Shown: piece by piece, positions 4,264 through 56,400 of the stretch | Numbering within the stretch: the stretch's first letter is position 1 | Layout: every line of letters starts with the position of its first letter | Made by a program: the position numbers and the translations under genes | From: Cyanophora paradoxa CCMP329 | Lineage: Eukaryota > Plantae > Glaucophyta | DNA length: 64,000 nucleotides | Assembly: GCA_004431415.1 (NCBI GenBank) | Contig: QPMI01000553.1 | Span: 186,001 to 250,000, forward strand | Direction: 5' to 3' | Notes under the pieces: generated by a model | Databases searched by the model: none | Told to the model about the DNA's origin: nothing | What the model saw: the letters and a program-made list of their open reading frames with translations, nothing else

Positions 4264-5428
4264 TGATTTTATTATTTAGTTACATGTACAAGATCGTGAG
4301 TCTTGTGGGCAGCTGCATTCGTGATTAGCATCGGGCAGATTAGAATGCGTGTCGGCCGTGGGTCTTTATATATATGTATGCGGGGGTGAATTCAAAGCCG
4401 CCGGGGCGACGTCGACGTTTTCCCCATGGCCATGCAGGAATTCGAACGCTTCAATTGCAAAGGCTTCAAAATCCGAAACGATTAATATTGCACATCTCAG
4501 AGTCTGCATGCCGATGGAGATGAACGATTGCACATGCTAGAAAATCAAAATCTTGGCTGGTTATCTTGAAAATCAATGTGGAAAATTGATCATGAAACAA
4601 GCTTTTCGAATCAGGGGAAAAGGACCCTTTGGAGCTCGAGGTCGCGATTCGATGATTAATTATAAAATTAATATATTGCGCCAGCAGTTGCAGGTGGGTG
4701 TGTCACAGGGGGGCAAGTATGTATACATATGCATGTGCAGGGGACCGGGCCAGTCAGTAAGGACGAAGCCTTGAAGACCGTGAATTCGAACAGTTGGCAG
4801 CGGCAGCCATTAATATTGGTATACGTAATTGGACTCCGGGAGGCGCTGATCATATCGGATCATGATACTTACTACCGCGGTAATCGTTTATCTTTCATTT
4901 GCCAAGTTGTTCGGGTTTCAAGTCGTAGGCCAGCTGCCGCGTGCAGCCTCCATGCGCACGTGCCGTCATCACGGCATGATCATCGTCGATGCCGCGCCGC
5001 GGGCCGTCTAGCTCAAGAGTCCGGGGTGGGCGTCTACGGCGGGGCTGCATGGCATTAAATGTAAACATTGTACTACGGTACAATTGGCTCGGCCTAGAAC
5101 GGGGGCGCAGCTTCAGATCTAGAGCCCAAGCGACGCTGAGTCCTTGCGGGTTGATCATGATCACGCGTACGATGCAGAGGTGGGTCAATTGCACAGATCT
5201 AATTATAATATAACGCAGTAAAAAACAAAATCATTTGACGCTTGCATGCTATAGCTAGTTTAGATCTAGATCTATACCTCTGCTAGCTAGCCGGACGAGC
5301 GCTGGCTACTCGCATCGAAAGATCGGAATCAACGAAAATTTCCTAATTTATTTTGCGGCCGTACGTGATCATGATCACGAGGGCGCGCTCTGTCTACAAT
5401 CCTAAGTGCTAGTCTCGTGCTGAATGCG

Positions 5429-23400: not shown

Positions 23401-26400
23401 AAGAGGCCCGGCGAGCTGGTCAGCTGCAGGTTCGACGGCGCCATGTCCGCGGGGCTCGCGGGGCCCGCGCCGGAGCCGGCCGGGTACGAGGCGAGCGGCA
23501 CGCTGTTGCTGGCGGGGCCCGCGGGGCTGCCCGACGACGACAGCGGCACCACCGAGAAGTACGAGTTGGCGGCCGCGCTCGGGGTGAGGCCCTTGGGCGC
23601 GAAGGTGTTGACGCCCGACGGCGAGGCCTTGGCGGTCGCGATCTGGCGGCCGTCCTGCAGGACGCCGAAGCTGCCGCGCGAAATCGCGTCAGCGCCCCGC
23701 GGCACAGCGAAAATCGCGTCGCGCGCGAAACACGGCTGCCGCACCTCGGGACGTTGCCCAGGCCGCTCGGCGTGGTCCACGCCAGCAGCGCGCTCGGGCT
23801 GGAGCCGGAGCCCGCCGGCGTCGACGTCAGCGCGATGCCGGAGCTCGGGTCGCTCGGCAGCGACGCCGCGAGCGGAGCCGAGGCGGGGCCCGCGACGCCG
23901 TTGCTGTCGAACGGCACCACCTGCAGGGCCGAGGCGCCGCCGTTGGTCGGCAGGCCCGGGACGGGGACGGAGGTCTGGTTGCCGGCGACCGAGGCCACAG
24001 GCTTGCCGTCCTTGAGGACGGTGAACGAGGCGGGCGAGCCCGAGGCCGGGCGCTTCCACGAGAGGGTGGCGGAGCCGGGGCCGCTGCCGTTGAAGCTGCT
24101 GAGGGCGAGGCTCGACGGGGCGAGGGGCTCGGGGCCGGCGCGTCCACGCCCGAGCCAAGGATGCCCGCGCCGGGCCGGACGAGGGACCGTAGGGGCCAGC
24201 GCCAGCGGTGCCGTAGCCAGGCGCACCCGCGCCACTGTAGGCGGGCGCGGGCCCGAGCCACTGGTCGCGGTGTTCGAGGCCGGGCCGACCGCGCCGTTCG
24301 ACGCGACCGGCGCAACCTGGTAGACGCTGCCGGGCTCGCCGCTCTTGGGCGAGACGTCGAACGAGGTCTCGCTCGCCGGGACGGTGCCGAGGACCTTGCC
24401 GTCGCCGATCACCATGTAGCTCGCGGGGCGTCCACGCGCGGCGGGCTCCACGAGAGGCGGCCCGACGAGCTGAAGAGGCCCGGCGAGCTGGTCAGCTGCA
24501 GGTTCGACGGCGCCATGTCCGCGGGGCTCGCGGGGCCCGCGCCGGAGCCGGCCGGGTACGATGCGAGCGGCACGCTGTTGCTGGCGGGGCCCGCGGGCTG
24601 CCCGACGACGACAGCGGCACCACCGAGAAGTACGAGTTGGCGGCCGCGCTCGGGTGAGGCCCTTGGGCGCGAAGGTGTTGACGCCCGACGGCGAGGCCTT
24701 GGCGGTCGCGATCTGGCGGCCGTCCTGCAGGACGCCAAAGCTGCCGCGCGAAATCGCGTCAGCGCCCCGCGGCACCGCGGAAATCGCGTCAGCGCCCCGC
24801 GGCACCGCGGAAATCGCGTCGCGCGCGAAACACGGCTGCCGCACCTCGGGACGTTGCCCAGGCCGCTCGGCGTGGTCCACGCCAGCAGCGCGCTCGGGCT
24901 GGAGCCGGAGCCCGCCGGCGTCGACGTCAGCGCGATGCCGGAGCTCGGGTCGCTCGGCAGCGACGCCGCGAGCGGAGCCGAGGCGGGGCCCGCGACGCCG
25001 TTGCTGTCGAACGGCACCACCTGCAGGGCCGAGGCGCCGCCGTTGGTCGGCAGGCCCGGGACGGGGACGGAGGTCTGGTTGCCGGCGACCGAGGCCACAG
25101 GCTTGCCGTCCTTGAGGACGGTGAACGAGGCGGGCGAGCCGAGGCCGGGCGCTTCCACGAGAGGGTGGCGGAGCCGGGCCGCTGCCGTTGAAGCTGCTGA
25201 GGGCGAGGCTCGACGGGGCGAGGGGGCTCGGGGCCGGCGCGTCCACGCCCGAGCCAACGATGCCCGCGCCGGGGCCGGACGAGGGACCGTAGGGGCCAGC
25301 GCCAGCGGTGCCGTAGCCAGGCGCACCCGCGCCACTGTAGGCGGGCGCGGGGCCCGAGCCACTGGTCGCGGTGTTCGAGGCCGGGCCGACCGCGCCGTTC
25401 GACGCGACCGGCGCAACCTGGTAGACGCTGCCGGGCTCGCCGCTCTTGGGCGAGACGTCGAACGAGGTCTCGCTCGCCGGGACGGTGCCGAGGACCTTGC
25501 CGTCGCCGATCACCATGTAGCTCGCGGGGCGTCCCACGCGCGGCGGGCTCCACGAGAGGCGGCCCGACGAGCTGAAGAGGCCCGGCGAGCTGGTCAGCTG
25601 CAGGTTCGACGGCGCCATGTCCGCGGGGCTCGCGGGGCCCGCGCCGGAGCCGGCCGGGTACGATGCGAGCGGCACGCTGTTGCTGGCGGGGCCCGCGGGG
25701 CTGCCCGACGACGACAGCGGCACCACCGAGAAGTACGAGTTGGCGGCCGCGCTCGGGGTGAGGCCCTTGGGCGCGAAGGTGTTGACGCCCGACGGCGAGG
25801 CCTTGGCGGTCGCGATCTGGCGGCCGTCCTGCAGGACGCCAAAGCTGCCGCGCGAAATCGCGTCAGCGCCCCGCGGCACCGCGGAAATCGCGTCAGCGCC
25901 CCGCGGCACCGCGGAAATCGCGTCGCGCGCGAAACACGGCTGCCGCACCTCGGGACGTTGCCCAGGCCGCTCGGCGTGGTCCACGCCAGAAGCGCGCTCG
26001 GGCTGGAGCCGGAGCCCGCCACACATATGAATATTCATATTTTAATCCCTCGGCGTTCCGCCTCAGGATTAAAATATGAATATTCATATGTGTGATTCGA
26101 TGTTATATCAATAAAATCGATTAATTTATTTGAATTTTCACCTGAATTTTCATATTTTTACATGCATTTTCAATTAATTTAATCGATGTTATATCGATAA
26201 ACTCGATTAATCGATATTGTATCTTAATTGTAGTTAATCGGAATTATATCAATAACTTCGATTGATCTTAATTGAATCCTAAATGAATCTAATCGGAATT
26301 ATATCAATAAATTCGATTAAATCATGTTCTTTTCCGATTAAATCAATTAAATATTTAACTTTGTTATCATAAGTGGTCTAAGTTGACTCACTTTTCATAA

Positions 26401-29400
26401 ACATTTTGAACTCTTAGTCTCTTTGAATTTCTTAAGATGACTCAACTTAGTCAACTTAGTCAACTTTGTTACCATAATCAATCAGGGTGGACTCACTTTT
26501 AGATCAACTTTGAAATTTCAAGCAAAATCAACTTGGATTTCAAAAGTGGATCTTCTAAGTGGACTCAAAATGTTCACTTTGTGATACATGTTAGCTCAAA
26601 TCCTTACTGTTTATGGTCAGGGTTGACTAAGTGGGGGGAGTTGACACATTTTTGAAATCCTTTTTAGAAAACTTTAGGTCCCAAATATTTCCTGTGAAAT
26701 TTGAGTCAACTCAACCCACTTAGTCAACCCTTGCATTGAATTCGTAACAAAATCCATATACTATTACTACTTTTACGATTAATATGAGTCAACCTTGAGT
26801 CCACTTAAATATAAATATAATATAATAGGGGGAATCAAGGGGAGATGCTGAGTGTTATTGTAAGGAAATCGAATAGTATTCGAAATACTTGACATTGCTT
26901 AATGTAGGGTGCATTCATATTTCGGCTACATCATACAGTAGAATTCTATTGTAACAAAAGCTACTGTAGAAAGAAAATCATTGTAGAAAGCTATTGTAGG
27001 AAAGGATATATTATATCCTTTTTTAACGATTGCCATTGTAATAAAAAGGTAAATTACCCTGTTTATCATTATAGAAACCCATCAAAACGGGAATCTATCA
27101 TGTTTATGTCTCTCAGTCTTCTCAAATGTTAAGAAATTCATTGTTTTATCGATCTCATCTGCAACTGCTTGTGTTTTATGCTGAGCTTCTTTACCACAAC
27201 TGAATATATCAATTGCTAACATGCCTTCATTGGAATAACAATGAGCTGTGCAATGGCTTTCATCTAATAGCAGAACCAATGCAAAACCAGGAGGTGATAG
27301 TTTGCCATCAAATATCTCACAATGCTTATGAACAATCCTAATACCTTGTCTCAATACTGCTTGTTCAAGGGTTCTCATAATCCAATTACCAAGAAAGCTA
27401 ACATGCTCATAACCTGTTGCTATAGCTGTTTTAGCCTTGTAATCAAGCATTACATGAAAGCCTCTGTATTTAGTCTCCATTAAGAATACCTTAGAAAAAT
27501 TAATTAATCCTAATCGAACCTAATGCAAATATCCCTGTACTCTACTTTGATTGATGAAGTAGCCCTTTTCCTGTAAGCCTGAGAATGCTTTTTGTTGCAT
27601 TCCCTACAACCTGATCCCTTCACATGATTAAAGGGATATGTAAGGATCACCTTGTTACACTGCAAACATCTCACAGATACTTTCTCTTGAGCTTTGATGT
27701 AATGTGTCTCACTGTAATCGAATTTATCTTTACCATGAACTGTCATAGCAGCATCAATAAACTTTTTTGTTTTACTATCCATACTCTATATATAACCAAT
27801 ATTCTTATGGAGCAGTATCCTGTCCAAAAATGGGGAAATATCGATTTGTGCCATAATACTCAGCATAGGTATTCTGCCTTGCAATAAAATCGGTTCTCTC
27901 AGCATATAATACACACTTGTAGATACCAAACTTGGTGGCTCTCACCAGAAACTGATAGTCTTCCAAACCGAAATTGACTCCATGATAAGCAATACCAAAA
28001 TTATCATATGGGGTGATCACAACTGCAAAATTAGGAGTTCCACCCTCCACTTGACATACAGCATATACATCTGGTGGAATATCCACAACAACCTTGTAGT
28101 GGTCACCAATCTCAACAAGAGAATCTACTACTGCTGTCTGTTCATTTACTACAATGGGGAATATTTTGATTATATAGGGGGCATTCATGCTGGGGACATA
28201 GGTTCGAATTCTTGTATTGGGATCAATGGGATTGGGTTGATCATTCACAAATAAAGGCGCTCCAACAGCCCCACCAACCCTAAGACCATCACCAATATAA
28301 GCTCCCCCCGATTTGCAGTTAATAGCTCCCGACCTAGATTCAAAAGAATAAGTAGACAGAGGATCTCCATAGCTATCTGGGTCTCCATAATGAGCAGAAA
28401 AGTTTGCATTTGTCACAAGTAGCTTAGTTGTCTTAACTATTCCATTATTTTTATCACATCTGAGTTCCTGTAATCTCAGTTTATGGGTGGAACCAAAGGT
28501 GTTCATTGTAGGTTGGACCTCTGTTGATTGGAGACCCTCTACATCATCAAAGGTAGCATGCTGTAAAACATGGTTTGCTGGGGCAGCTAATGATAGTTGA
28601 GGTGTAATAATTCGTTCAAGTGGGGGTTGCTCAGCCATTTTACATTAAAGGGATATATCTTTTATGGGGTTGGGTCATCAATTACATCTAATTCTTGGTA
28701 AAATCCTGTTGTGAATATATCAGCAACATTTACCCCACGAAGTGCTGATACAGCTGCTATATCTGTTCTCAGTCCCATAATCATAGTATTGTATACTCCA
28801 ACCTCAGTGACAAACAGATCATAGGTAAATGTCAAATTGTTATAAACACAATATCCTCTGCCAAAATGGTTCGAAGCTTGAACAAAGAATAAGTAGTTGT
28901 GTCCTGGTTGATTATTATTGGCTCTACACATGGAAAGCATTGCAGTGGGAAGAGGAATATTTCTTCTTACTCGATCAGTTCCTGTAATGGAAACTAATTC
29001 CGAATTCTCAAGAGTTACAGAGGATGCAACATAGAAATGCAAAAAAGGTTGCTGTGCAACAGGTGTGTAGAAACGAATTCGTTGTGGGTTCTCCACATTT
29101 TGTTCGAGAGTATCTGGGACATCATTGTAGGAAACAGATGAAGATAGCTGACCTGAAACTCTGCAGCCACCACCAATAAATGCTCCTCCTGATCTCACAG
29201 TTACAGCAGCAGTGTTTTTATCATAATCAAGGGCTTTCAGATCAACACTGTAAGCATCAGGACCTCCATTAGTAGGCTGGAAAAAGTTAGCATTTGTGAC
29301 AAGAAGTCGAGTTGTTTTAACCACACCAGAATTCTTATCAGCTCTCAGCTCTTTAACTCGAATAATCGAATTTTTATCAAAGGAGTTGCCATTGGAATTG

Positions 29401-32400
29401 GGTCTCTCTGTGGATTCTAAACCACGAACCTCATCATTTACTTCATGCTGGCGAAAATGCATTGCAGGGGATCCAAGGGAATATATAGGCAGTTGAACTC
29501 GATTATATTCACCCATTGCTTCTTTTACTAAGAAGGAAAGAAAAATAATGTTCATTGTTCTTCTGTGACATAATTATATTCGATACCTTTCTTTACAGTT
29601 CCCCTTTGGAATGCCTGTAAAACGATGGCTTCCTTTGAGGTTGGTATTTGAATTCCTGATGCAATGCAAGACTGGATCTCTTTCTGAACAATATCATCAA
29701 TTGCAATTCTTGCCCTGTTATGAACCACATTATCAATCCAATCCTGAACAGAAGCTGCACAGAATTCCATTCCCAGCTTCTCAGTATCTGAGAGAACTAC
29801 TTGGTAGATATTCGACATTCCTACTTTATAAAGAGAAAATTTATGTGACACTCAAAAGTTCACCTGTGAATGTTGTTCGATTTGTGTAGCTACCCCCATT
29901 ATTTGTTACAAGTGTTATATACTCACCCATAGCAATGTTAAGAATTACACTAATGTAAAGCGGTTTATTCGTAAGAGTTGAGTCATTTTGTGTTATGATA
30001 CTTTGACCCCCTGGGTCTTGGTCATTTACTTTTAAAGAGAGACTTATTGGACTACTTGAAGTTGAATGGGTATATGCTGTAAATCTGTAATGACCTGCAA
30101 CAGGAGCAGTGAACCTTCCATTACTGACATTGAATGCCCCCTATTATTCACAAACACTACTCCCCAATTGATAAGAGCAGTTTCACTGGTAGCAACATGA
30201 GGATAATTAAGTTGAACAGAAAATCGAGGCTGATAGTCATATTTTAAATAACAATTTGTGTTGATTGTCAAGCGATTGGCTTCCAGAGTAGCCATAATAT
30301 CACTGTTGCGTTTCAAAACAAGATTCACATTTGCTCCTGTATCGATTTCAGGTGTGACCACCTTGGAAGTTGCTGTTATTATCGATTGTGTTGTTTCTGG
30401 AATACTTATGCCTCCATTGGCTGTTACTGAACCTGTAAATGTGCTTGTTCCTGTAATGTTTACTTGATTGGCTGTTAGAGTTCCATCAATCCTTGCCCCA
30501 TCTCCAATATATGCCCCTCCACTTCTAACTGAAAGAGCAGCATTATTAATTGTATTATCAAAAGTAACTATTTTGGGTGTGGTGAACCCTCCCACATTGT
30601 CATAAATTGCTGTATCTGAAACAATTTGACCTGATTGGACTTGGTTCTTGTTAGATACAATGAGTCCTGTGGTTCTTATTTTTCCCCATTGCGATCACAT
30701 CGAATTTCTTTGCATCTAATCACAGAATTTTGTGAAAACGAATCAGCCCCTGTTGTTTCTGTGCAAATAAACCCAGGTGTTGCATCTGTTACTGTATGGT
30801 TCAGTTGATGTATTTTTGGGGCGGCATAACAGAAAACAGGAACTGCTATTTGTGTGGACATTCTTTATATTATACAGATAATATTATGTAGCAGTAACAA
30901 GATAACAAGAAAAATAGTATCTGATATCAAATTGAAGACTGGCTCCAGAAGAATTGCGTATATCAAAGGAGTCACCTTCAATAACAGAAAGTAAAATTTC
31001 ATATGAAATTGGAGTTACAAATGTATTAGAAATCCCTGCGGACGGCATTGAAACCCTTGTTTGGATGGTTGTAGGATTTCCATTTAAATAAATGCTGGTA
31101 GCAATATGAGTATAAGAGGTTGTGCCAGCTCTCATACATGCAAAGAACACCCTATATACTCCGGAAACAGGAGCTGTAAATTTTGTGGATGAAAAGTTTC
31201 CTTCATTGTTTACAAGATAAGCTCCATTTATAAAGTTAAAGGGTGTTCCAGCTGTAAGTATTATGGACCCTGTCAAACCAGGAGCTTGTCTTGATATATT
31301 CATTCTTGGACAATAGGATCGTTTCAGACCACTATTTTCCGGGATTGTGATTGCTTTCAGATCTGTTATTGTCTTTTCGAGAGTGAAAATGGTATTTCCG
31401 TTTCGTTTATAATTCACATTTGCATCTGTCCCATTATCCATCTCAGGTGCATTAACTCTTGTTGTAGCTTTTCGAGTTTCAACGCTAACATTTCCCAAGA
31501 GTCCACCATTGAAGGTCATCAATCCTGTAAATGAACTTGTCCCATTCACATTTAATTGATTCGCTGTTACAGTCCCTGCAACATTTGCCCCATCTCCAAT
31601 GTATGCTCCTCCACTCTTGACAACAAGAGCCGAATTATTTATTGTGTTATCGAAAGTTACTATCTTTGCTGTGGTGAATCCACCCACATTATCATACACT
31701 GCTGAATCTGGGACTACTTGACCTGCTTGAACTTGATTTTTATTCGAGATAATAATTCCTGTGGTTCTTATCTTGCCTCCATTTCGATCACATCGAATTT
31801 CTTTGACTCTGAGTATATTATTCTCTGTGAAAGAGGTATTACTTGAAGTTTCAGTGCAAATATACCCAGGTGTTGAATCAACTACTCCATGAGAGGTGCT
31901 ATGAAGTGATTTGGCTGCAAGTTCATAGTTTGGGATTTCTAATAGAGAGGTCATCTTTATAATTACGAAATAGTTAAATTGCGACAGCAATGTAATGAAT
32001 TGTAACTGGAAATCCTGGTCTGTCAAAAGAACTTAATGGAACTATGTCAAGCTCACAAGTGAAATAGCTACTGTAAACTTGTTTAAGCCTAACATACATT
32101 CGATAGTAGTAGGCTGTCTCATTGTGTTGTATACCAGTTGTTACAATAGGAGGGTTAGCAAAGCTGCTGTTGAAATTAATAGTGAGGTTAAACCTATGGT
32201 CAGGATTTGCCCAAAGATAAGGAGTAGTGTAAACATACGTTCCTGCTTGGATTTTCCCATTAAAATATGCATTGAGTTGACTGGAAAGATCTGCCTCTGT
32301 AATACATCGACTGATGGTCGCATTATTTGAGGGGTTCATAGCATAGAAATTTCTTGCATAGGCATTTCCACGAACAAGTAAGGTTTTATCAAAGTAATTC

Positions 32401-35400
32401 TGCGAATTGTGGAAGAACCATGTTTCTTCAAACATAGGTCCTGCTGGTTCTACAATCTGACCTGATCCTACATACATTGTGTTGTTGGCTCTGATTGTGG
32501 TGGCTGTGAAAGGATCAAGAGTTGGTCTATTGGTCAAATCATTGTAGTTTCCTGAGAAAATTGCAGGTTTGTTATAGATATCTGTATTCCAATCATGAGT
32601 GTGTGCAAAATCTGTAATCTCTGCCTTTGTGTGGGTGTGACCAACATATGCAACATTTCCAAGATCTGTAATCTCTGCCTTGGTATGGGTGTGACCCACA
32701 TATGCAACATTTCCGAGATCTAATATCTCTGATTTAACATGAGTGTGAGCGAAATTTGTGATATCTGCTCTTGTGTGGAAGTGTGCAAAATCTGTAATTT
32801 GTGATTTGGTGTGAGTGTGTGCAAAATCTGTGATTTCTGCCTTTGTGTGGGTGTGTGATCTATTATTTAGATCAAGGAAACTACCCGAAAATGCAACAGG
32901 ATGCAGATTTGCAGCAGTAGGTTTATTTATGAGATCATTATAATCTCCTGTGAAAGAGATGGTCTTTAGTTCACCCCTTCCTACATAATCAGAAGGGAGA
33001 TCAATCTTAATGGGCATAATAGCTGGATCATCAGGTATCTCATACTCACCTCCTGGATGAACCACAGGAAAGGTTTGATTGCTTTCAGTATGGACAAAGA
33101 AGTTACATGCTGTTACTGTTCCATCAATAGTCCCACCTGTGAGAGGGAGGTAATTGCCTGTAACACCAATACCTATACCTGCAATGATTGTATTTAGTTC
33201 TGTTTCATCTATGTAGTTCTGAGCTTGAAGGTAATCCTCTGTGACTACTCTCGAAATGCTCTCATTGTGTATGTTTTTTGCAGCCATTCTTTGATTGGCT
33301 TCCAGAACCCCACCATAATCTGTTTTAATCCATGCAAGCTCTGCCCTTCCATAATTATCATTTGCAGTTCCCACTATGGGAATGTAGGAATACTTATCTC
33401 GACTGAAAACTATCATTGGTCTTGAGCCATCTAAGCTGCTTACATCTGCTACATGAACCTGTATAGCAGAGTTGTAATTTTGGTAGGTTGCTGGGTCTGT
33501 TGGGACTCTGAATGTATCTGTGGGAATGTCAGCCTCCATGTAGCTTGACACAAAGATATTTGGTATGGTTGCTCCTGGTGGTGGTGGGGTTTCAAAAGAG
33601 CCTGGTAATGTCCTAATATGAAGTGGTCCTCTCATAGCTGAATTTGCAAGTGTCCCATTCACATGAACATAGTGTTCATTCAAAAAGATCCTTTCAGGGA
33701 TATTACAAGTCTGGTAAAGAGAAACCCCCAAGTTATCAAGAGGCTCCACCTTTGCAAATTCTGGTTGGTCATTGATCTCATCCCAAATATGTTCATGTTT
33801 GCTTGGTGGGAACTCAGTTGGAATCCCATCAATTTCACCCCAATCATGCCTGTGATCCTCTGGTGGATACTTTTGAGGTTTGCCTAAGATCTCATCCCAA
33901 TCATGATTGTGATCCTCTGGGGGATACTTTGCAGGTTTATTATTAATTTGTTCATAATCAGGAAAGAACTCCCAGATCTCAGGTCGAAATCCATCTGGTA
34001 ATAATTCCTCATGGGGTTCATAAGGTTGCTCATAATCAACAACTGGTGGATCATGCCCATCTGGCAAATACTCCTCATCAGGTTCATAGTTCTGCTCATA
34101 CTCAAACTCTTGTGGATCTAAGCCATCTGGTAGTATCTCCTCCTCATTGGGATCAAACTGATCATATTCATATTCTTGTGGGTCAAAACCATCTGGTAAA
34201 TATTCTTCCTCATCTGGAACGAATTGATATTCATCAAGCTCTAATATATCGATTTCAGGAGGTAAATACTGCTCATCTATTTGCTTTTTTGGTTCAATTA
34301 TAGGTTTATTGCGAACTTGCTCCCAACTAACAATGTGCTGCCCAAAGGCTACATCTTCAGTTGCTGTGTATTCTCTTCCAGGCTGTTTCTTTGGTGTTAA
34401 ATCGGGAGGTCCATTTGGAAATGGAATAGGGAATGGGACTGTTGGTCCATTGGGACCATAATGCTCAATTATTTCCCTTAGAGTTTTCTCACTCACAAGT
34501 TTCTCCCCATTTGCATACACATTGCTGCCATGGATATTTCGCCATTGCCTGGTTCTAATTCCAAGGTCTTTCACATTGCTATACAAAGGCAAAAGGTGCC
34601 TATCCATTTCGACTAAATCAGGGTGTAAATGGATTGCTACTGGTTGACTGGGGCTACTGTTGATTGTAATTGATGGCTTTTTTTGATGGACATCTTTTGG
34701 AGTAAAAAACCCAAAAGGCTCATTCCTCGCAAAGTCATATGTAATATCCTTGGGGTAGACATCATTTGTGTAGGAGACCTGATTTGTGTTGGCAATGGGA
34801 CCCACTTGCAATACTTGGGGGACCTCAGCTTTTGGAGTGCTGCCCTCATTGTAAATTCGCAAAGCTGTGTTCTGTTTGCCCTGCTCATCTTGAACATTGA
34901 AAATCAATCGACCACTATCGAACCTGGAAGGTATATCTGGGTGAGTGCCACTGGTTTTTAGTTTCCTAGGTCTCCTTCTTGTTGCTTTGATCTCTGCCAC
35001 TTGGTTTGCTTTCACATTACCCAAACTAAAAGCAACACTGACCTCCTCTTTATCTGGATCGGTTTGATTCACAGATAAAGCATGCTCCCTTGATTGAGTC
35101 TTTGATGAATTATCAGAGCTGTGGTCAATTGAAACTGAACCCTTTACTTTAATATTATCAAAGTTCACATGCTTGGTGCTGCTTGCATTATCATCTTGAA
35201 TGGTTTCTAGATTTGGTGGGTAATTGAAGCTCATGGCTTTTACTATATGGATTTATAAAATTCCTGATAAGTAAAAGATGCCTCTCAAGGTCGCTTTAGC
35301 TTTATCAGGGGGAGGTGCAAGGGGCATTATCATAACCAGGCTGCTCAAAGAAATCGAAAATCGAACTGGCAGGAGAATAATCGATCTTGTGGATCTTGTG

Positions 35401-47400: not shown

Positions 47401-50400
47401 AACAATACTATCATTTCTTGTTCCCACAAGTATTTGAGGAATTCAGAAAGATGAAGCTTGTAGATGATGAGACCATTGAGGAAGAAGCTAATCCAAGGAT
47501 GAAACAAGAACTACCTGCTGCTGATCCTGATGCATCAGATTATGACTCTGATGTTGAAGTTTAGGTTTACTCAAAAGTGGACTCACAGTTGACTCAAATT
47601 TATCATAAAAGACCCAAACAGTCTTTTATTTATGGTTTATTTATCGATTAGGTTGACTAAGTGGGGGGAGTTGACTCATTTTTTCACAGATTCTAAAAGA
47701 GGACTCTGCCCTAAAAAGAAATAAAAAGTGCCTCAACTCCACCCACTAAGTCAACCAAAAAATGATTTAAGAGATAGAAAAATATATTTATATGTAACTA
47801 GTAAGAAATGGCTGGAACAGATCATGATTCTGGATCGATCTATATGATTGAGAGTCAGGAAATGAACAAAGTCTACATAGGAAGAACCTCACAGCCACTT
47901 CAAAAAAGATGGAGACAACACAAATCAGGTCAAATGCCATCTACAGCAGACCTATGCAAGGCTTCTGATGTGAAGTTCTCAGTCCTGTATTCAAGTAAGA
48001 AGGGTGGGCATGAAGACCTAATGAACAGAGAAGCATATTACATGTATCTCTTTGAACCTTGGATAGTCAATTTACAAAAACCGAAATCCCGATTTAGGAT
48101 TAATAGGTTTTTGCGATTCCATTCAGAGGAAGCCAGTGGATCCATTAAAACATTTTAAATTGCGTTTAGAACATCCTAAAATAAAATATCCCCTTAGAAT
48201 AGGAACAAGTTAGGAATAATGCCCCGAATTACCAACAAACTCATAAGGGAGAAGAAATGGGAACTCATGGGATTGCTGGGAACACTTTATGCAGCCCATG
48301 AAATTACAGAGGCTGAATATGACCGGGAAATAGATTTAATTGCAAAGGGCAGACCCACTTTAAGCAGATTAACCAGAAAAGCAAATAACCTATATGATAA
48401 AATTGAAACCTTGGATGAATTGGATAGGCTTAGGCAAATAGAACCAGATGCAGAAGATGGAACAGCCATGAATGAATTATATCGCTGGCTCACTTACAGA
48501 GCCAGAAGGGAAGTTGTTGTAGATGTGATTGAATTCCTGGATAGAATTGCTACATCCCTTCCAAATCGATTAAAGCAGGGTTTAGATCAATTCAGGGCAA
48601 TCAAGGTTCGCTTGTCTTTTATCTGCAAGTTCGTTAAAGTGAGCAATCCACAGGTTTGGATATCGAAATACATTTACAGTGATTACTTTGTATTAACCAG
48701 GTCGAGAAATATTCGAACTGAGCTGAATAAAGCAGCCCAAATGTGTCAGGAGCAGATGAATGTGGTTGATAGCTATCGCTTAGAAAGAATTGAAATACTC
48801 AGAGTGGCTATTATGAGTTATGCTCCAACTGGTGGATGCTTTCTACAAACCCCAGAGTGGATTGCTAGGAAGAGAGCCACAGTGAATATTCGAAATATAG
48901 ATGATTCCTGCTTCGAAAATGCGATTTTAGCCTCGATTTACAGAAAATCTATTAACTCCCATAAGAGGAATGAGCTTTCACAATATCGCAAATGGAAATA
49001 CTCAGCAATCGCTTATAATCCGCTGGCTCTCAATTTCGACAATATCCCATTCCCTGTTGCCTGTGATGCTGAAATAATTGATAAATTCGAGGCTCAAAAT
49101 GCAGGCATTAGCATTAATATATTCGGAATCGATGGAGAGGTTGTTTATCCCCTGCATCAATCCAGTTACCCAGGCAGAAAGCATAAGGTTAATCTCATGC
49201 TGATATTTGATGATGAAGGGAATGGTCATTATATTACAATCATGTCCCTTTCAAGATTATTGAAAGTAAACCATGAAACATACAATGATCAGAAGTTACA
49301 CTACTGTGACACATGCTTATCTCGATTCAGGTCTGAGGCTAAACTCACTGCTCATGTGGACTCAAATAGATGCATTGATTGGAGACTCTCAAAGGGAATC
49401 ACACCAAAACCTGAGACCACCATAGAGTTTGGACTGAAAAACCTCAGGAAAACTGTTTGGCTTCCTGTTGTGGTTTACTGCAAGATTGAACATAGAAGCA
49501 TCCCCATTGATGCATCAAAATCTAAGAGGGAAGTCTCAGCAGTCAACCTGAGAGTAGTCACTGGGGCAGATGTTCAGGAGTTTCGATTTGAGGGTCAGGA
49601 TCCAATGGGAGGTCTCTTTGAATGCTTGGAGTCCAAAGCAAGAGAACTAATCGATTTCCTGTTTACCAACATTCCTATGAATGAACTCACAGATGAGCAG
49701 AAAGCAATTTACAGAGCTACCAAACACTGTTACCTTTGCAGTGAGAGGTTCACTAAGGAGAACTTCAAATGCAGGGATCATGATCACCACACAGGTCATT
49801 ATATTGCTCCTGCATGCAGAAACTGCAATCTCCATAGGAGAATCTCAAAGCAAACCAAAGTTGCAGTAGTTGTTGACCAAATGGATGACTGTGGGACATT
49901 CATTTTCAGAAAAATAGCAGGCATGGGTGATAAAAAGCGAATCGAAATCCTTTCGAAAAACTTTGATCAATACCTTTCATTGCAATGGGGTCTTTACAAG
50001 TTCATTGATGCAAGCAATTTCATGGATTTTGGAGCTGCTGATGTAGATGAGTTAATGAACAAATTCCAAGCCTTCAGAAGGCTTTCACACTCAGTATATG
50101 GACTTGACCCAGTTCATTATGTATCTGCACCTGGGTTATCTTGGGATGCTATGCTTAGGACCACCGAGGCAAAAATAGAGCTTATAAGTGATGTAGAGCA
50201 ATACGAATTTGTTGAGAGGGGAATCAGGGGTGGCTTTGCAACAATGCCTTGTAGGTATGCTGAGGCTGATGGTGAGAACTCCCACATTATGCTGTTTGAT
50301 GCTAACAACTTGTATGGCTACTGTTTGAGTCAGCCAATTCCAGTTGGTGATTTTAGATGGGAGACCGAATTCAACCCACAAGATAACAGATCCAGTTTCC

Positions 50401-53400
50401 TGGAAGTTGATCTGGAATACCCAATAAGGCTATATCTAGACCACAGTGATTTCCCCCTAATTATTAACAAGAAAATAGTAGAATATGCGGAATTATCACA
50501 ATATCAAAAGAGCCTGTTGGATCTTTCAGGAGAAGAGCTTGATAAGACCCCTAAGCTAACTGCAACCTTTGGTTCTGTGGCAAACTATGTGATTTCTGAG
50601 CCTCTTCTGCAATATCTGTTGGACAAAGGTGTGAAATTAAAGAAAATTCACAGGGTCCTCTCATTTACTGTGGCTCCTGTAATGAAACCCTACATTGAGC
50701 TGAATACTGAGATGAGAAGGAAAGCAGTGAATAAATTCGAGGCTGATTTCTATAAACTCATGAATAACTCAATCTATGGGAAATGCATTGAATCTTGCAG
50801 AGGTAGATCTGTGGTTAAGATTGCAAACAGTGAGAAACTGTTTATGAAATATGCAGCTTCCCCATTGGTGAAATCAACAAGTCCCATAAACGAAAAAGCA
50901 GTTGCCTTTGAGTTTTACACAAAGCATGTGAAACTAGATAAGCCTGTTGCAATTGGGGCTTATGTTTTGGATGCAGCCAAACTGCATAATTACCAGTTCT
51001 TCTATGATACTGTAAGGTCCCAATGGACAAAAGCAAAGTTACTATTCCATGATACTGACTCCTTCTGTCTATATATTGAATCTAAGACCTTACAAAAAGA
51101 TATAGAGAATATATCTTATGCCTTGGACCTAGGGGGATCTAACAGAATGACCCCAGGTAAATACAAAAATGAAATGCCTGGCTCTGCAATATTGGAGTAT
51201 GTAGGTCTGAGAGCAAAAGTTTACAGTTTCAGAACTGCTGAGATTGAGAGGAGTAAGCTCTCTGGGACTTCCACTGAGGAACTCCAATTTAATGATTTTA
51301 AGCAGTGTTTATTTGCAGGTATCAGCAAGACTGTGACTGCAAAGCAGAAGAGAAGGGCAGATCACACAATAATAGATACCGTGAGTAGAAGGGTTGCCCT
51401 AAACTGCTTTGATGCAAAGAGATACATCTTACCAGATGGTATTAATTCTGTTCCTTTTAATTAAGAGATGCCAGCAACTGGAAGAATAGTTAGGAGAACC
51501 ACTGAGCAACTACAAGGTAACCTACTGCCTATCACAGTTCCAAAGGAGGAAAAAGGGGAATCTCGAATTGTCAAAAAATCAGAGATGAAAGAGCTTGTCC
51601 CTGTGGAGATCCCAGTTGCTATTGCAGTGAAAGAAACTAGCAAGATTGCCAAGAGATTCTATGATGTGAGAACTGGTTACAAAGGGCTTCAAGCTATGAG
51701 GGCTGAGTTACCAGATGAATCCTATAAGCAGTTGCAAGAGTTCTATAAAAAACAAGAGGTAGTTCAGATCAATGCACCTGCTATATCTAGGAAGAGAGAT
51801 CCCATGGTTCCAATAAGGCAACCCCTTGATACCTATGTGATTGATTTGCTCTTTTTCCCAGCTTATAAGAAACAAAACAATGGCTATGATACCTTTATGA
51901 CTGCTATGGAATCAACACTGAGAACTGGATATATCATACCTATAAGAGATAAATCAGCTCTCACTACATTAGCTGCATTTAAGCAGCTTGAAATGAGAGT
52001 GGCAAGACCCATAGTAAAAGTTCAATCAGATGCTGGGAGTGAGTTCCAAAATCGAATATTCCAGGAGTATTTATCTAGTAAATTCATAGAACACCAAGTG
52101 AGTGGAACTGCTGACCATAGAAGCCAAGGTCGAATTGAAGCCTTTAACAAGCAGATTAAGAGACTGATCACAAACTACTGCATAGCTAATAACACAGCTA
52201 GATTCTTTGATGTGTTAGGTGATATTGAGTATAATTACAATAATACAGTTCACTCAGCTACTAAGATGAAGCCAGGCGAAACTACAGAGGAGCATTATAG
52301 GTATATAGTGGGATTAGAAGATGAAAGATTCAAGAAATCAATAGCTTACCTTGATACCATGCAGCCAGGCATGTTTGTTAGAGTGAAAGTTGAGAAAAAT
52401 GCCTTTGCTAAACAGGGTAACAATTGGTCTAGGATGGTTTACACTGTTGATAGTAGGGAAGGCTTTAAGTTTAAGCTAAGGAGTCCCACTGGTGAGATCA
52501 TAGAAAACAGGTTTGCTTTCCATGAGCTGTTACCTGTGAATTCAGTTGAGTATCTGGAAACACCTACAGTGGATGCATTAGAGCAAGCCAAAGAGGAAGC
52601 CAAGGTTGATGCTGCTATAAGGAGAGAAGGCATAGAAGCTGCTAATGAAGTCCCAGATAAGCCTTTGATAGAGGCTAGAAAGGAGAAGACTGGCAAGGTT
52701 AATAGGGAACTCAAAAAGCTCACTATAGCAGGGACACAGAAACTTTCTGAGGTTAATAGCCAGAGATGGTATAATGACTTTCAGACTACTAAGGAGTCAT
52801 ATACAGCCCCTAAACCTCAGAGAACACTAAGAGAAAGGACCAAAACTAGCTAGTTTGCTAGGCAAAAACTCGTTTTTTCCAAATATATGTATGACTGATA
52901 TACATATATGCACATGATATACACATAGTCTTGTAGATCTTATCAAGCGCTTCACAGCGATATGCAGAACGTTGCGTTTTGATGATCTGGTGATGAGATA
53001 TAACAGTTTGAAGATGCAAAAGTCACTTGCCATAGTAGACTTGGTGAAACACTAGCCCAGGAGTCGACTAGATGGCAAGCCGTTTTTGGCTCAGAGAATA
53101 AAGCGCTAGATTACTGACTCAGAACTACGAGGTTCAAATCCGACCGGGAACCTTTACTTCGTTCGCCGTGAAACTTGAAAAGTAAAAAAAAACCGCGGTT
53201 TTTTCTAGATTAATGCTGTACCCGTCTAGAAACTCACTATTCACGTTTGCTACGATATCTCAACACCACATGCTCAAATCGATGCGCTTAAAACGTCATA
53301 AAATCGAGCATTTTAAGGCGGTCACAGCGCTACTATCACATCTAGGATTTTCGATACCTGTGACTCCAAATCGCGATGAAACCGATTTTGAATTTTGATT

Positions 53401-56400
53401 TTAAATTCGATTAAAATCCATTAAACGTGAGTTTTTAATACAGATCACCAGGAAGTTATCAAATCGATACACCAACGATTCAATATAATCACCAATATCA
53501 TACATAACAATAAATTGCAATCACATCTACGAATCTCGATGTGTATACATCGCTATTACGATTAAACCGATTTTGAAAATTCAAAACTAATTCGATTAAA
53601 TTCGATTATAACGAAAGAGTTAAAGATCTACATCAAATACTTATCAACTCAATCACCTGATAACATCGAATAATCAACCCAAATCTACTTTAGAGATAAT
53701 CGTGATTACATATGTGAAATCATCAATCTAACACTGCATTTAGTAAGCATCTCCCCTTGATTCCCCCTATTATATTATATTTATATTTAAGTGGACTCAA
53801 GGTTGACTCATATTAATCGTAAAAGTAGTAATAGTATATGGATTTTGTTACGAATTCAATGCAAGGGTTGACTAAGTGGGTTGAGTTGACTCAAATTTCA
53901 CAGGAAATATTTGGGACCTAAACTTTTCTAAAAAGGATTTCAAAAAATGTGTCAGCTCCCCCCACTTAGTCAACCCTGACCATAAACAGTAAGGATTTGA
54001 GCTAACATGTATCACAAAGTGAACATTTTGAGTCCACTTAGAAGATCCACTTTTGAAATCCAAGTTGATTTTGCTTGAAATTTCAAAGTTGATCTAAAAG
54101 TGAGTCCACCCTGATTGATTATGGTAACAAAGTTGACTAAGTTGACTAAGTTGAGTCATCTTAAGAAATTCAAAGAGACTAAGAGTTCAAAATGTTTATG
54201 AAAAGTGAGTCAACTTAGACCACTTATGATAACAAAGTTAAATATTTAATTGATTTAATCGGAAAAGAACATGATTTAATCGAATTTATTGATATAATTC
54301 CGATTAGATTCATTTAGGATTCAATTAAGATCAATCGAAGTTATTGATATAATTCCGATTAACTACAATTAAGATACAATATCGATTAATCGAGTTTATC
54401 GATATAACATCGATTAAATTAATTGAAAATGCATGTAAAAATATGAAAATTCAGGTGAAAATTCAAATAAATTAATCGATTTTATTGATATAACATCGAA
54501 TCACACATATGAATATTCATATTTTAATCCTGAGGCGGAACGCCGAGGGATTAAAATATGAATATTCATATGTGTCCCGCCGGCGTCGACGTCAGCGCGA
54601 TGCCGGAGCTCGGGTCGCTCGGCAGCGACGCCGCGAGCGGAGCCGAGGCGGGGCCCGCGACGCCGTTGCTGTCGAACGGCACCACCTGCAGGGCCGAGGC
54701 GCCGCCGTTGGTCGGCAGGCCCGGGACGGGGACGGAGGTCTGGTTGCCGGCGACCGAGGCCACAGGTTTGCCGTCCTTGAGGACGGTGTACGAGGCGGGC
54801 GAGCCCGAGGCCGGGCGCTTCCACGAGAGGGTGGCGGAGCCGGGGCCGCTGCCGTTGAAGCTGCTGAGGGCGAGGCTCGACGGGGCGAGGGGGCTCGGGG
54901 CCGGCGCGTCCACGCCCGAGCCAGCAATGCCCGCGCCGGGGCCGGACGAGGGACCGTAGGGGCCAGCGCCAGCGGTGCCGTAGCCAGGCGCACCCGCGCC
55001 ACTGTAGGCGGGCGCCGGGCCCGAGCCACTGGTCGCGGTGTTCGAGGCCGGGCCGACCGCGCCGTTCGACGCGACCGGCGCAACCTGGTAGACGCTGCCG
55101 GGCTCGCCGCTCTTGGGCGAGACGTCGAACGAGGTCTCGCTCGCCGGGACGGTGCCGAGGACCTTGCCGTCGCCGATCACCATGTAGCTCGCGGGGCGTC
55201 CCACGCGCGGACGGCTCCACGAGAGGCGGCCCGACGAGCCGAAGAGGCCCGACGAGCTGGTCAGCTGCAGGTTCGACGGCGCCATGTCCGCGGGGCTCGC
55301 GCGGCCCGCGCCGGAGCCGGCCGGGTACGAGGCGAGCGGCACGCTGTTGCTGGCGGGCCCGCGGGGCTGCCCGACGACGACAGCGGCACCACCGAGAAGT
55401 TCGAGTTGGCGGCCGCGCTCGGGGTGAGGCCCTTGGGCGCGAAGGTGTTGACGCCCGACGGCGAGGCCTTGGCGGTCGCGATCTGGCGGCCGTCCTGCAG
55501 GACGCCGAAGCTGCCGCGCGAAATCGCGTCAGCGCCCCGCGGCACAGCGAAAATCGCGTCGCGCGCGAAACACGGCTGCCGCACCTCGGGACGTTGCCCA
55601 GGCCGCTCGGCGTGGTCCACGCCAGCAGCGCGCTCGGGCTGGAGCCGGAGCCCGCCGGCGTCGACGTCAGCGCGATGCCGGAGCTCGGGTCGCTCGGCAG
55701 CGACGCCGCGAGCGGAGCCGAGGCGGGGCCCGCGACGCCGTTGCTGTCGAACGGCACCACCTGCAGGGCCGAGGCGCCGCCGTTGGTCGGCAGGCCCGGG
55801 ACGGGGACGGAGGTCTGGTTGCCGGCGACCGAGGCCACAGGCTTGCCGTCCTTGAGGACGGTGAACGAGGCGGGCGAGCCCGAGGCCGGGCGCTTCCACG
55901 AGAGGGTGGCGGAGCCGGGGCCGCTGCCGTTGAAGCTGCTGAGGGCGAGGCTCGACGGGGCGAGGGGGCTCGGGGCCGGCGCGTCCACGCCCGAGCCAGC
56001 GATGCCCGCGCCGGGACTGGACGGGCTTGAAGGCCCGAAGCCCCCGGCAAAGCTGCCAGAACCAAGGCCAGCAGGGGCGGGGGACGGCGAGGTCGCGCGC
56101 CCATACGAGTCGCTGCGCGGGCTAGTCGCCGAGGCGTACAGCCCGTCCGAGCCCGAAGCCGCGCCGCCGTACCCGGCCCCGGCCAGAGCGGCCGCACCAA
56201 CGCCGGCGTACGGGCCCGGTCCGAAGCCGGATCCGGCGCCGCTGCCGCCGCTGACGGGGCTCGAGGCCGGGCCGACCGCGCCGTTCGACGCGACCGGAGC
56301 AACCTGGTAGACGCTGCCGGGCTCGCCGCTCTTGGGCGAGACGTCGAACGAGGTCTCGCTCGCCGGGACGGTGCCGAGGACCTTGCCGTCGCCGATCACC

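What the first reader, a model, noticed from the sequence alone, without database searches (positions are those of the whole stretch)
26021..54575. Complete endogenous Polinton-like virus with an atypical gene set and replication module
Seen: intact TSD, near-identical TIRs and mostly open genes, which points to recent integration. It combines a Polinton-type PolB and rve integrase with an AEP primase-SF3 helicase, two penton-like genes, five fibre-like genes, a lipase and a metabolic enzyme. I see no adenain-like maturation protease. Known: canonical Polintons and virophages encode that protease, whereas many PLVs lack it. Inference: a distinct lineage whose replication may combine hairpin ends, a primase and a proofreading-deficient PolB.
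Basis: partly seen in the sequence, partly recalled or inferred. Interest (0 to 1): 0.85.

Follow-up and report, generated by a model that had tools for sequence, protein, structure and literature searches.

The report
Two-replicase provirus of a glaucophyte alga
A complete 28.5-kb DNA virus sits inserted in what is likely the genome of the alga Cyanophora; it belongs to a family already catalogued there, and it likely copies itself with a protein-primed polymerase that has lost its proofreading residues, helped by a primase-helicase gene that is broken in this copy but whole in siblings, while its fold-back ends would offer a second way to start copying.

Summary
The element is real: 26021-54575, 830-bp TIRs with 3 differences, a 6-bp TSD, 13 empty sites in the host array, and 73-nt terminal hairpins. 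Double jelly-roll MCP, A32 ATPase, rve integrase, five fibre genes, patatin and AdoMet decarboxylase are supported; the two pentons rest on motifs only. No adenain/Ulp1 protease was found. The pPolB keeps its polymerase and vOTU residues but has lost exonuclease motifs kept in 118-119 of 119 relatives.

Corrections: this copy's primase-helicase is split by an 874-bp insert (sibling copies are whole), and the MCP and fibre frameshifts look like assembly errors.

The family is catalogued: close MCPs are Cyanophora entries in Bellas 2023, and Bulzu 2025 tabulates 156 glaucophyte elements with this gene set and no protease. Exonuclease loss plus SF3 helicase (mavirus), double replicases and terminal palindromes (Halocafeteria preprint) have precedents.

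Not found in print: this pPolB's exonuclease loss, a relic TIR/origin behind the primase gene, and G.A-rich 3' hairpins. This scan noted such hairpins and replicase swaps before, on other elements of the same genome. The capsid lineage remains unplaced. Verdict: new variant of a known kind.

The parts
26015..26020 (+). left target-site duplication CCCGCC
   Evidence: 13 empty sites with one copy in the host array
26021..26849 (+). left TIR (829 bp); starts ACAC; holds 10 GT(T/G)GACT boxes and a sub-terminal palindrome at 26619-26731
26021..26093 (.). left 73-nt terminal hairpin
   Evidence: -29.7 kcal/mol, z -12.25
27082..27480 (-). prokaryote-type AdoMet decarboxylase homologue, ESH self-cleavage motif present
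   Evidence: PF02675 E 1e-11, TIGR03330, motif
27510..27782 (-). 90-aa fragment resembling the N-terminal repeat of a homing-type endonuclease
   Evidence: phrog_4605/681/559 E ~1e-8
27805..28638 (-). fibre-like protein 1
   Evidence: paralogue of fibres 2-4
28662..29555 (-). fibre-like protein 2
   Evidence: E 4e-40 to fibre 1, 1e-20 to fibre 4
29552..29818 (-). 88-aa protein, likely fibre-associated
   Evidence: weak hits only; role recalled from phage tail regions, untested
29841..30861 (-). fibre-like protein 3 with C1q-like head; two 1-nt frameshifts (30136, 30683) that are likely assembly errors
   Evidence: tblastn, C1q E 2e-6; otherwise identical contigs in X1, X3, X9 carry the extra base
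30884..31954 (-). fibre-like protein 4, weak C1q-like head
31974..35234 (-). 1086-aa fibre with phage-tail repeats and C-terminal H-type lectin
   Evidence: PTR E 2e-7, H_lectin E 3e-4; same architecture reported for a C. paradoxa PLV
35278..36834 (+). patatin phospholipase fused to F5/8 (discoidin); GGGxRG, GTSTG, DGA present
36824..37756 (-). likely penton 1
   Evidence: DUF5901 E 0.011; recalled motifs; weak score to an L001 ORF
37786..38796 (+). likely penton 2
   Evidence: position before MCP, recalled motifs; z 2.6 to penton 1
38850..40216 (+). [quoted passage not shown]
40328..41269 (+). homing-type endonuclease; low contig depth, likely in few family members
   Evidence: phrog_559 E 7e-77
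41330..42112 (+). A32 packaging ATPase
   Evidence: PF04665 E 6e-11; Walker A
42141..42875 (+). 244-aa charged protein without cysteine; likely core or scaffold protein, not a cysteine protease
   Evidence: role inferred
42898..43956 (+). three short ORFs (90, 132, 134 aa); two share a basic repeat, likely DNA-binding
   Evidence: no significant family hit
44096..44788 (+). N-terminal half of primase-helicase: likely AEP (DxD, SxH, DxxVY motifs)
   Evidence: no profile hit
44789..45647 (.). 859-bp host-like insert (62% GC, (TC)n end) between copies of a 15-16-bp duplication at 44774 and 45648; likely a retroposon
   Evidence: joint 44773>45648 in X1, X3, X9; no Rfam family
45663..47564 (+). 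C-terminal half of primase-helicase: PriCT-2 + SF3 helicase (GEQGTGKN)
47575..47756 (+). internal relic of the inner ~200 bp of a right TIR, 68% identical, palindromic core kept; likely an origin or protein-binding site
   Evidence: 5 boxes in 236 bp, P 7e-9; z -7.2
47808..48158 (+). GIY-YIG endonuclease; a contig in X3 skips it
48219..51464 (+). pPolB: TP-like region, vOTU (C231, H337), degenerate exonuclease with ~95-aa deletion, polymerase motifs A-C intact
51468..52853 (+). rve integrase with D-D-E spacing
53746..54575 (-). right TIR (830 bp); 54503-54575 forms the 3'-strand hairpin with a tandem GA/GA loop and GAA triloop
54576..54581 (+). right target-site duplication CCCGCC

Best explanation
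This is one integrated copy of a multi-copy polinton-like virus family, likely of the glaucophyte Cyanophora, whose pPolB lacks proofreading residues and likely starts copying by protein priming at the TIR ends, with a primase-SF3 helicase module that likely supplies unwinding and is broken in this copy. Shown: boundaries, TSD, gene set, loss of exonuclease residues, the insert, uninterrupted sibling genes, and the relic TIR behind the primase gene. Inferred: the rve integrase made the 6-bp TSD; the pPolB N-terminus acts as terminal protein and is released by the vOTU domain; the ACAC end allows the jump-back step of protein priming; the helicase compensates for exonuclease loss as proposed for mavirus. 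Also inferred: the genome is a mosaic in which the [GIY-YIG, pPolB, rve] block lies between a relic and the present right TIR, so the two replicases come from different sibling elements; this copy would need the helicase in trans from siblings. Virions would be built from MCP, two pentons and five fibres without Ulp1 maturation, and would use lectin-tipped fibres and the patatin to enter cells. The 3' hairpins would act as end protection or as a back-up primer on displaced strands.
For: TIR/TSD/empty sites. MCP fold: best Z 22.9 (rmsd 4.0, 322 aligned) to PBCV-1 against 12.2-12.7 to virophage MCPs. Nearest MCP is a named C. paradoxa protein, 58% identical, which matches Bellas 2023 Table S2 gene_47449 in length, contig and printed start; that study counts 366 MCP hits in two clusters. 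pPolB: polymerase and vOTU residues kept; ExoI D, ExoII N and Y lost, against 118, 119 and 119 of 119 relatives; ExoIII region 34 aa against a median of 128 in the 112 of 119 measured; the 47%-identical P0002 shares the deletion, so the loss is old and lineage-wide. Krupovic 2024 link exonuclease loss to helicase gain. Terminal reiterations serve protein priming. Uninterrupted primase-helicase in contigs of 3 of 4 runs laid. Relic TIR; repeats bracketing replication modules are reported in Barth 2026.
Against: No biochemistry, and no free virus or close environmental relative was found. The Gly-Ser-Gly-Trp stretch of relatives, recalled as the linking loop, is shortened to Asp-Ser-Tyr here and in P0002, and the full alignment did not place that Ser in the conserved column, so the terminal-protein function could be lost. 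The single-sequence pPolB model was useless (pLDDT 31), so TP and TPR folds are not shown. The Halocafeteria preprint finds terminal palindromes mainly with non-pPolB replicases. In Bulzu Table S6 only 49 of 156 glaucophyte elements hit pPolB and 15 hit PriCT-2, so neither enzyme is shown to be universal. The AEP call is motif-based.
Confidence: 0.6

Rival explanations
1. Hairpin-primed (rolling-hairpin) replication is the main route: the 3' ends fold back, the exonuclease-dead polymerase extends them, the primase-helicase unwinds, and the terminal-protein domain is vestigial.
For: The 3' end pairs flush at the base of a 29-bp stem. The 3' strand has a tandem GA/GA loop in pyrimidine-GA-purine context and a GAA triloop, motifs known to stabilise DNA hairpins; the 5' strand has pyrimidine mismatches there. 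The putative linking loop is altered. The model is proposed for Halocafeteria elements. Unchecked notes describe similar hairpins and a fold-back replicon in this genome.
Against: vOTU catalytic residues and the TP-like region are kept in both family pPolBs. The end has an ACAC reiteration. Both ends carry the same hairpin sequence, with no flip/flop pair. Computed energies of the two strands differ by only 1.1 kcal/mol. No resolvase other than rve is evident.
Confidence: 0.22
2. The two replicases are a transient, non-cooperating state: the primase module is a passenger that is being lost, and pPolB alone replicates the element.
For: The primase gene is broken here while TIRs are near-identical. 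Summed contig depth over 43.5-48.2 kb is about 1,000-6,700 against mostly 5,000-24,000 over pPolB-rve and the two ORF bins before it (a hint only, depth is no copy number). The Halocafeteria and Barth preprints read double replicases this way.
Against: Siblings keep an uninterrupted gene. The relic TIR keeps its palindromic core (32 of 33 nt) while spacers have drifted. Exonuclease-less pPolBs elsewhere come with a helicase.
Confidence: 0.15
3. The element is a chimeric assembly of several family members.
For: Multi-copy family, long-read indels, no contig spanning the stretch.
Against: Matching TSD, collinear host array on both sides, TIR pair with 3 differences; several gene junctions are crossed by contigs with 0-12 differences, e.g. 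40162-41217, 43826-44325, 47726-48204.
Confidence: 0.03

Closest known systems
Cyanophora paradoxa EVEs of Bellas et al. 2023 (PMC10120064; MCP clusters MMPC21 and MMPC29) and the glaucophyte PLV set of Bulzu et al. 2025 (PMC12220804)
   Same: MCP 58% identical to Table S2 gene_47449 (= P0001) and, by eye, closer still to gene_64235. Table S6: 156 elements, 0 hits to nine protease profiles, 49 pPolB, 85 rve, 0 tyrosine recombinase, 15 PriCT-2, 89 lipase, 66 AdoMetDC. PTR + H-lectin fibre and discoidin-patatin are named in the text.
   Different: The clusters carry no group name. In the parts I read, neither paper discusses exonuclease loss, hairpins or the relic TIR. I could not tell which of the two clusters holds this MCP.
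Mavirus and low-GC EMALEs (Krupovic 2024, PMC11161782; Hackl 2021, PMC8547959)
   Same: pPolB with TP and vOTU but only a remnant exonuclease, separate SF3 primase/helicase, rve integrase, TIRs, short TSD.
   Different: Mavirus has a virophage MCP and a maturation protease. Here the MCP is structurally nearer NCLDV capsids, there is no Ulp1 protease, and the pPolB is 33-40% identical to Maverick-type enzymes.
Halocafeteria seosinensis endogenous virophages and PLV subtype 4 (bioRxiv 10.64898/2026.07.28.741278)
   Same: Palindromes at TIR ends next to the TSD; some elements carry pPolB plus D5 primase-helicase; hairpin priming proposed.
   Different: There palindromes go mostly with non-pPolB replicases; here they go with a pPolB. 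G.A-rich strand asymmetry is not mentioned in the passages read.
Maverick-Polintons, class Polintoviricetes
   Same: pPolB of the same family (3,413 hits, named ones from animals), rve, TIRs, 6-bp TSD.
   Different: No Ulp1/adenain protease, exonuclease lost, MCP without detectable sequence relatives among them.
Multi-replicase polisuviruses (Barth, Ha, Aylward, bioRxiv 10.64898/2026.10.13.758929)
   Same: Two replicase classes in one genome, internal repeats bracketing one module, endonuclease genes next to replicases; one example is a QPMI01 contig.
   Different: Here the internal repeat is a recognisable relic of the element's own TIR; figures and supplements of the preprint were not seen.

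Membership tests
Polinton-like viruses (broad sense, Polisuviricotina) | double jelly-roll MCP | tested here: met
   model pLDDT 57; Foldseek E 6e-14, VIA Z 22.9, rmsd 4.0, 322 aligned
Polinton-like viruses (broad sense, Polisuviricotina) | A32-like packaging ATPase | tested here: met
   PF04665 E 6e-11
Polinton-like viruses (broad sense, Polisuviricotina) | single jelly-roll penton | tested here: inconclusive
   weak scores and recalled motifs only; not folded
Polinton-like viruses (broad sense, Polisuviricotina) | 15-45 kb genome with TIRs, integrase and TSD | tested here: met
   28,555 bp, 830-bp TIR, rve, 6-bp TSD
Cyanophora EVE clusters of Bellas 2023 | MCP at least 25% identical over 30% of length to a cluster member | tested here: met
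   58% over 94% to P0001 = gene_47449
Polintoviricetes (Maverick-Polintons, Gosseviruses) | pPolB plus rve integrase | tested here: met
Polintoviricetes (Maverick-Polintons, Gosseviruses) | Ulp1/adenain maturation protease | tested here: not met
   no hit in three libraries; six-frame motif scan gave 2 spurious matches; the 244- and 134-aa ORFs have no Cys, the others are 132 aa or shorter or fibre paralogues. ORFs were not folded one by one
Polintoviricetes (Maverick-Polintons, Gosseviruses) | MCP in the Mavpol/GKS1 clusters | tested here: inconclusive
   3 hits among 1.84 billion representatives, none named as such; the reference HMMs were not available
Virophaviricetes (mavirus-like) | virophage-type MCP | tested here: not met
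   Z 12.2-12.7 to mavirus and Sputnik against 21-23 to NCLDV MCPs; 0 of 156 glaucophyte elements hit MCP-VIR
Virophaviricetes (mavirus-like) | maturation protease | tested here: not met
Virophaviricetes (mavirus-like) | dependence on a giant virus | not testable with these tools
   needs co-infection
Aquintoviricetes (TsV, PgVV, Dino groups) | reduced morphogenetic module without protease | tested here: met
   as above; definition quoted
Aquintoviricetes (TsV, PgVV, Dino groups) | MCP and ATPase phylogeny within the class | not testable with these tools
   no reference set; ATPase search gave 1 hit (85%); only 2 of 156 glaucophyte elements hit the MCP-POL profiles
AEP-SF3 replicases | AEP catalytic domain followed by PriCT and SF3 helicase | tested here: inconclusive
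   PriCT-2 E 1e-8 and SF3 E 4e-21 met; AEP by motifs only

The most novel reading that the evidence does not exclude
Glaucophytes host their own deep branch of small double jelly-roll viruses, outside the named polisuvirus classes, that switched a Maverick-type pPolB from protein priming to self-priming on G.A-stabilised 3' hairpins, with an AEP-SF3 enzyme loading at a palindromic origin: a parvovirus/poxvirus-like end strategy in an rve-integrating virus.
Probability: 0.2. Interest if true: 0.72.

Novelty: new variant of a known kind. Interest (0 to 1): 0.42.

Why it matters
It gives a complete, bounded example of a capsid lineage that has been counted but not named, in a basal branch of algae. 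Its pPolB is a further, likely independent case of exonuclease loss with a helicase alongside, which bears on the compensation idea of Krupovic et al. 2024. The relic TIR is a fossil of how replication modules are swapped. Because the likely host is cultured and carries many copies, protein priming against hairpin priming can be tested directly. The parts each have precedents, so a specialist would find it useful more than surprising.

Tried and rejected
No host genome is held, so copies could not be counted or compared directly. Free or environmental relatives: none from viral-contig scans with MCP, MCP alignment, ATPase and both primase halves; one distant pPolB locus L001, 29% identical, exonuclease residues intact; none from two metagenome scans. 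These scans find close relatives only. No RNA holder listed; run X15 gave 28 and 26 low-depth contigs and may be DNA, so it is not used for expression. The ESM Atlas gave no result. The single-sequence pPolB model failed and was not searched. PDB sequence searches for MCP, pentons and AEP half gave nothing relevant; a phage tblastn for the AEP half gave one chance hit. A tRNA-like B-box at 53131 was rejected: no ARAGORN or Rfam support, fold z about +0.9. The Rfam MIR7807 match to the hairpin is far below gathering score. The upstream ATG at 38822 was rejected as MCP start: relatives align with the ATG at 38850. The frameshifted fibre gene was rejected as a pseudogene. The pPolB tree (38 of 122 sequences, midpoint root) joins the window with P0002 (support 1.0) and P0003 (0.999) but has no named reference clades, so it places nothing. 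The L001 comparison used the wrong strand and was redone. Upstream regions show only A/T-rich hexamers (TATAAA in 8 of 21, 0.6 expected; one of the 21 windows was taken 3 nt off), no specific promoter shared with a known giant virus was tested. AdoMetDC as a novelty was rejected: no main-text hit with 'polinton', but it is tabulated for glaucophyte and cryptophyte elements.

Full report
Boundaries. The element runs from 26021 to 54575. GC in 1-kb windows drops from about 0.75 to mostly 0.31-0.44, apart from one bin at 0.57 that holds an insert. The TIRs align over 830 columns with 3 differences, and CCCGCC is duplicated at both ends. The element sits in one unit of a host tandem array of about 1.1 kb, and the empty site with a single CCCGCC occurs 13 times in the window. 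This is a clean, recent-looking integration and no chance pattern.

Genes. Pfam, PHROGs and NCBIfam scans give, left to right: AdoMet decarboxylase, an endonuclease fragment, five fibre-like genes, patatin fused to discoidin, two likely pentons, MCP, a homing-type endonuclease, A32 ATPase, four unassigned ORFs, a primase-helicase, GIY-YIG, pPolB and rve integrase. Four fibres share an N-terminal domain. The MCP model (4-sequence alignment, pLDDT 57) matches double jelly-roll capsids: Z 22.9 to PBCV-1 (rmsd 4.0, 322 aligned) against 12.2-12.7 to mavirus and Sputnik (Foldseek). The pentons rest on position, recalled motifs and weak scores.

Protease. None of the three libraries finds one. A six-frame motif scan gave two spurious matches. 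The 244- and 134-aa ORFs have no cysteine; the rest are short or fibre paralogues. They were not folded individually. The pPolB does carry a vOTU protease domain with C231 and H337, which is a different enzyme from the maturation protease.

Broken genes. Contigs of four public runs were laid on the element. The MCP has a frameshift at 38901; contigs in 4 of 4 runs carry one more C, and relatives align with the ATG at 38850, so this is likely an assembly error, though sibling copies could supply that signal. The two frameshifts in the fibre at 29841-30861 are absent from otherwise identical contigs in X1, X3 and X9. The primase-helicase break is different: an 859-bp, 62% GC insert between copies of a 15-16-bp duplication. 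Contigs in X1, X3 and X9 skip exactly 874 bp there, so uninterrupted genes exist in other copies; X15 does not cover the joint. This copy's primase-helicase is therefore likely dead.

Host and family. A search of 5.8 billion proteins found one MCP relative, 58% identical, a named Cyanophora paradoxa protein. A full HMMER scan of 1.84 billion representatives found 3. Bellas et al. 2023 (PMC10120064; parts 2-3 of the text, passages, and rows of supplement file 2 seen) list that same protein and a still closer one as confirmed MCPs, and count 366 MCP hits in this alga in two unnamed clusters, 272 and 94. Bulzu et al. 2025 (PMC12220804; passages, section 13 part 1, Table S6 seen) report a PTR + H-lectin fibre from a C. 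paradoxa PLV and discoidin-patatin fusions, and tabulate 156 glaucophyte elements: 0 hits to nine protease profiles, 139 A32, 49 pPolB, 85 rve, 15 PriCT-2, 89 lipases, 66 AdoMetDC, and only 2 hits to their polinton/PLV MCP profiles. Starrett et al. 2021 (PMC8502044; section 10 seen) noted adintovirus-like proteins in this alga. So the gene set is the family norm and is on record, while the capsid is unplaced. Bellas and Sommaruga 2026 (parts 1-3 of 5 seen) do not mention Cyanophora in the main text; their HMMs and the bioRxiv supplements could not be seen and may place this MCP.

Polymerase. The pPolB has 3,413 hits, the best 120 listed: P0002 at 47% over the full length, then Maverick-type enzymes at 31-40%. 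Motifs A, B and C are intact. ExoI Asp is Lys (Asp in 118 of 119 others), ExoII Asn and Tyr are Gln and Cys (kept in 119 of 119), and the stretch before the ExoIII Asp is about 95 residues shorter (34 against a median of 128 in 112 of 119 measured). P0002 shares the deletion and has different substitutions, so the loss is old and tolerated. Krupovic et al. 2024 (PMC11161782; parts 2-3 of 6 and passages seen) describe the same state in mavirus and argue that exonuclease loss goes with helicase gain. Hackl et al. 2021 (passages seen) describe primase/helicase plus pPolB plus rve in low-GC EMALEs.

Ends. Each end is a 73-nt palindrome (z about -12). The 3' strand folds with a 29-bp stem, a tandem GA/GA loop in pyrimidine-GA-purine context and a GAA triloop, motifs that stabilise DNA hairpins (PMC10085684, passages seen); its 3' end pairs flush on the template. 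I looked for this asymmetry after an earlier unchecked note on another element of this genome. Against a hairpin-only model: the end begins ACAC, the kind of reiteration used in protein priming (PMC5175343, passages seen), the vOTU residues are kept, and both ends are identical. For it: the recalled linking loop is altered. The Halocafeteria preprint (section 7 and passages seen) already reports terminal palindromes, a hairpin-priming model and pPolB with D5 primase-helicase. Two searches (polinton + terminal hairpin, 6 papers; polinton + palindrom + TIR + virophage, 7 papers) showed no other polinton-like case in the listings or in the one further paper opened.

Internal relic. Eleven bases after the primase-helicase stop lies a 180-bp stretch collinear with the inner end of the right TIR, 68% identical overall but 32 of 33 in its core. 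The box GT(T/G)GACT occurs 20 times in the TIRs, 5 times in these 236 bp and 7 times in the other 26.7 kb (P 7e-9; the motif was chosen by inspection, so P is optimistic). The relic and the right TIR bracket GIY-YIG, pPolB and rve as direct repeats. The simplest reading is a join between an element that ended after its primase-helicase and a pPolB-rve block from a sibling. Lower summed contig depth over 43.5-48.2 kb hints that the primase module is in a subset of copies, but depth is not a copy number. Barth et al. 2026 (parts 1-4 of 5 seen) describe such repeat-bracketed modules.

Mechanism. Most likely (0.6): rve integrates a linear genome; pPolB primes with its own N-terminal domain at the ACAC ends; the SF3 helicase, loaded at the palindromic boxes, makes up for the lost exonuclease domain; this copy would borrow it from siblings. 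Hairpin priming as the main route (0.22) and a passenger primase (0.15) are the rivals. Whether the virus needs a giant virus is untested. The AdoMetDC may feed polyamine synthesis, but viral homologues can be arginine or ornithine decarboxylases (PMC9992855, passages seen).

Verdict. The element is a polinton-like virus in the broad sense, not a Maverick-Polinton or virophage by the tested features, and a member of a catalogued but unnamed glaucophyte family. Searches for Cyanophora + polinton (5 papers) and glaucophyte + endogenous + virus + capsid + Cyanophora (0 papers) found no dedicated description. New variant of a known kind; interest 0.42.

Noticed in passing
window about 9,600-18,700: A GC-rich retrotransposon with reverse transcriptase-like (13665-14350) and tyrosine-recombinase-like (to about 16470) frames and repeated end segments (about 7094-7362 and 17700-17990), resembling DIRS/Ngaro elements; read from translations, family name recalled.
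   Followed up: no
window 18,600-26,020 and 54,576-64,000, plus 5811-7039: The host array of about 1.07-1.22-kb units encodes Ser/Gly/Pro-rich repeats that look like fibronectin-III-type domains of a very long surface protein; the virus interrupts it.
   Followed up: partly
window 44789-45647: Host-like insert with 15-16-bp duplication and (TC)n end; its 5' part has high contig depth, so it is likely a repeated host retroposon. No Rfam match.
   Followed up: partly
window 40328-41269 and 47808-48158: Both endonuclease genes look optional in the family: low, uniform contig depth for the first, and a contig that skips 47752-48176 for the second.
   Followed up: partly
window 32590-32860 and 33800-34320: Contigs show several deletions and rearrangements in the His-Thr-His repeats and the acidic repeats of the long fibre, so fibre length likely varies among copies.
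   Followed up: no
window 52854-53745: About 900 bp without a long ORF between integrase and TIR, with a tRNA-like B-box at 53131 and short imperfect repeats; no RNA family found.
   Followed up: yes
window 35219-35278 and 37756-37786: Two pairs of divergent genes start only 30-45 bp apart and share one A/T-rich spacer, likely bidirectional promoters.
   Followed up: no
P0123: The only MCP hit beyond the family (E 8e-4, 28%) lies on a 42.7-kb contig and has a weak Capsid_NCLDV match (E 0.012): a possible link to mriyavirus-sized viruses.
   Followed up: partly
L001 33-14442: An IMG/VR polinton-like genome with a 1487-aa pPolB whose exonuclease residues are intact, plus MCP-, penton- and ATPase-like ORFs.
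   Followed up: partly
window 298-4250: Host genes with ankyrin-like repeats, split by introns or frameshifts.
   Followed up: no
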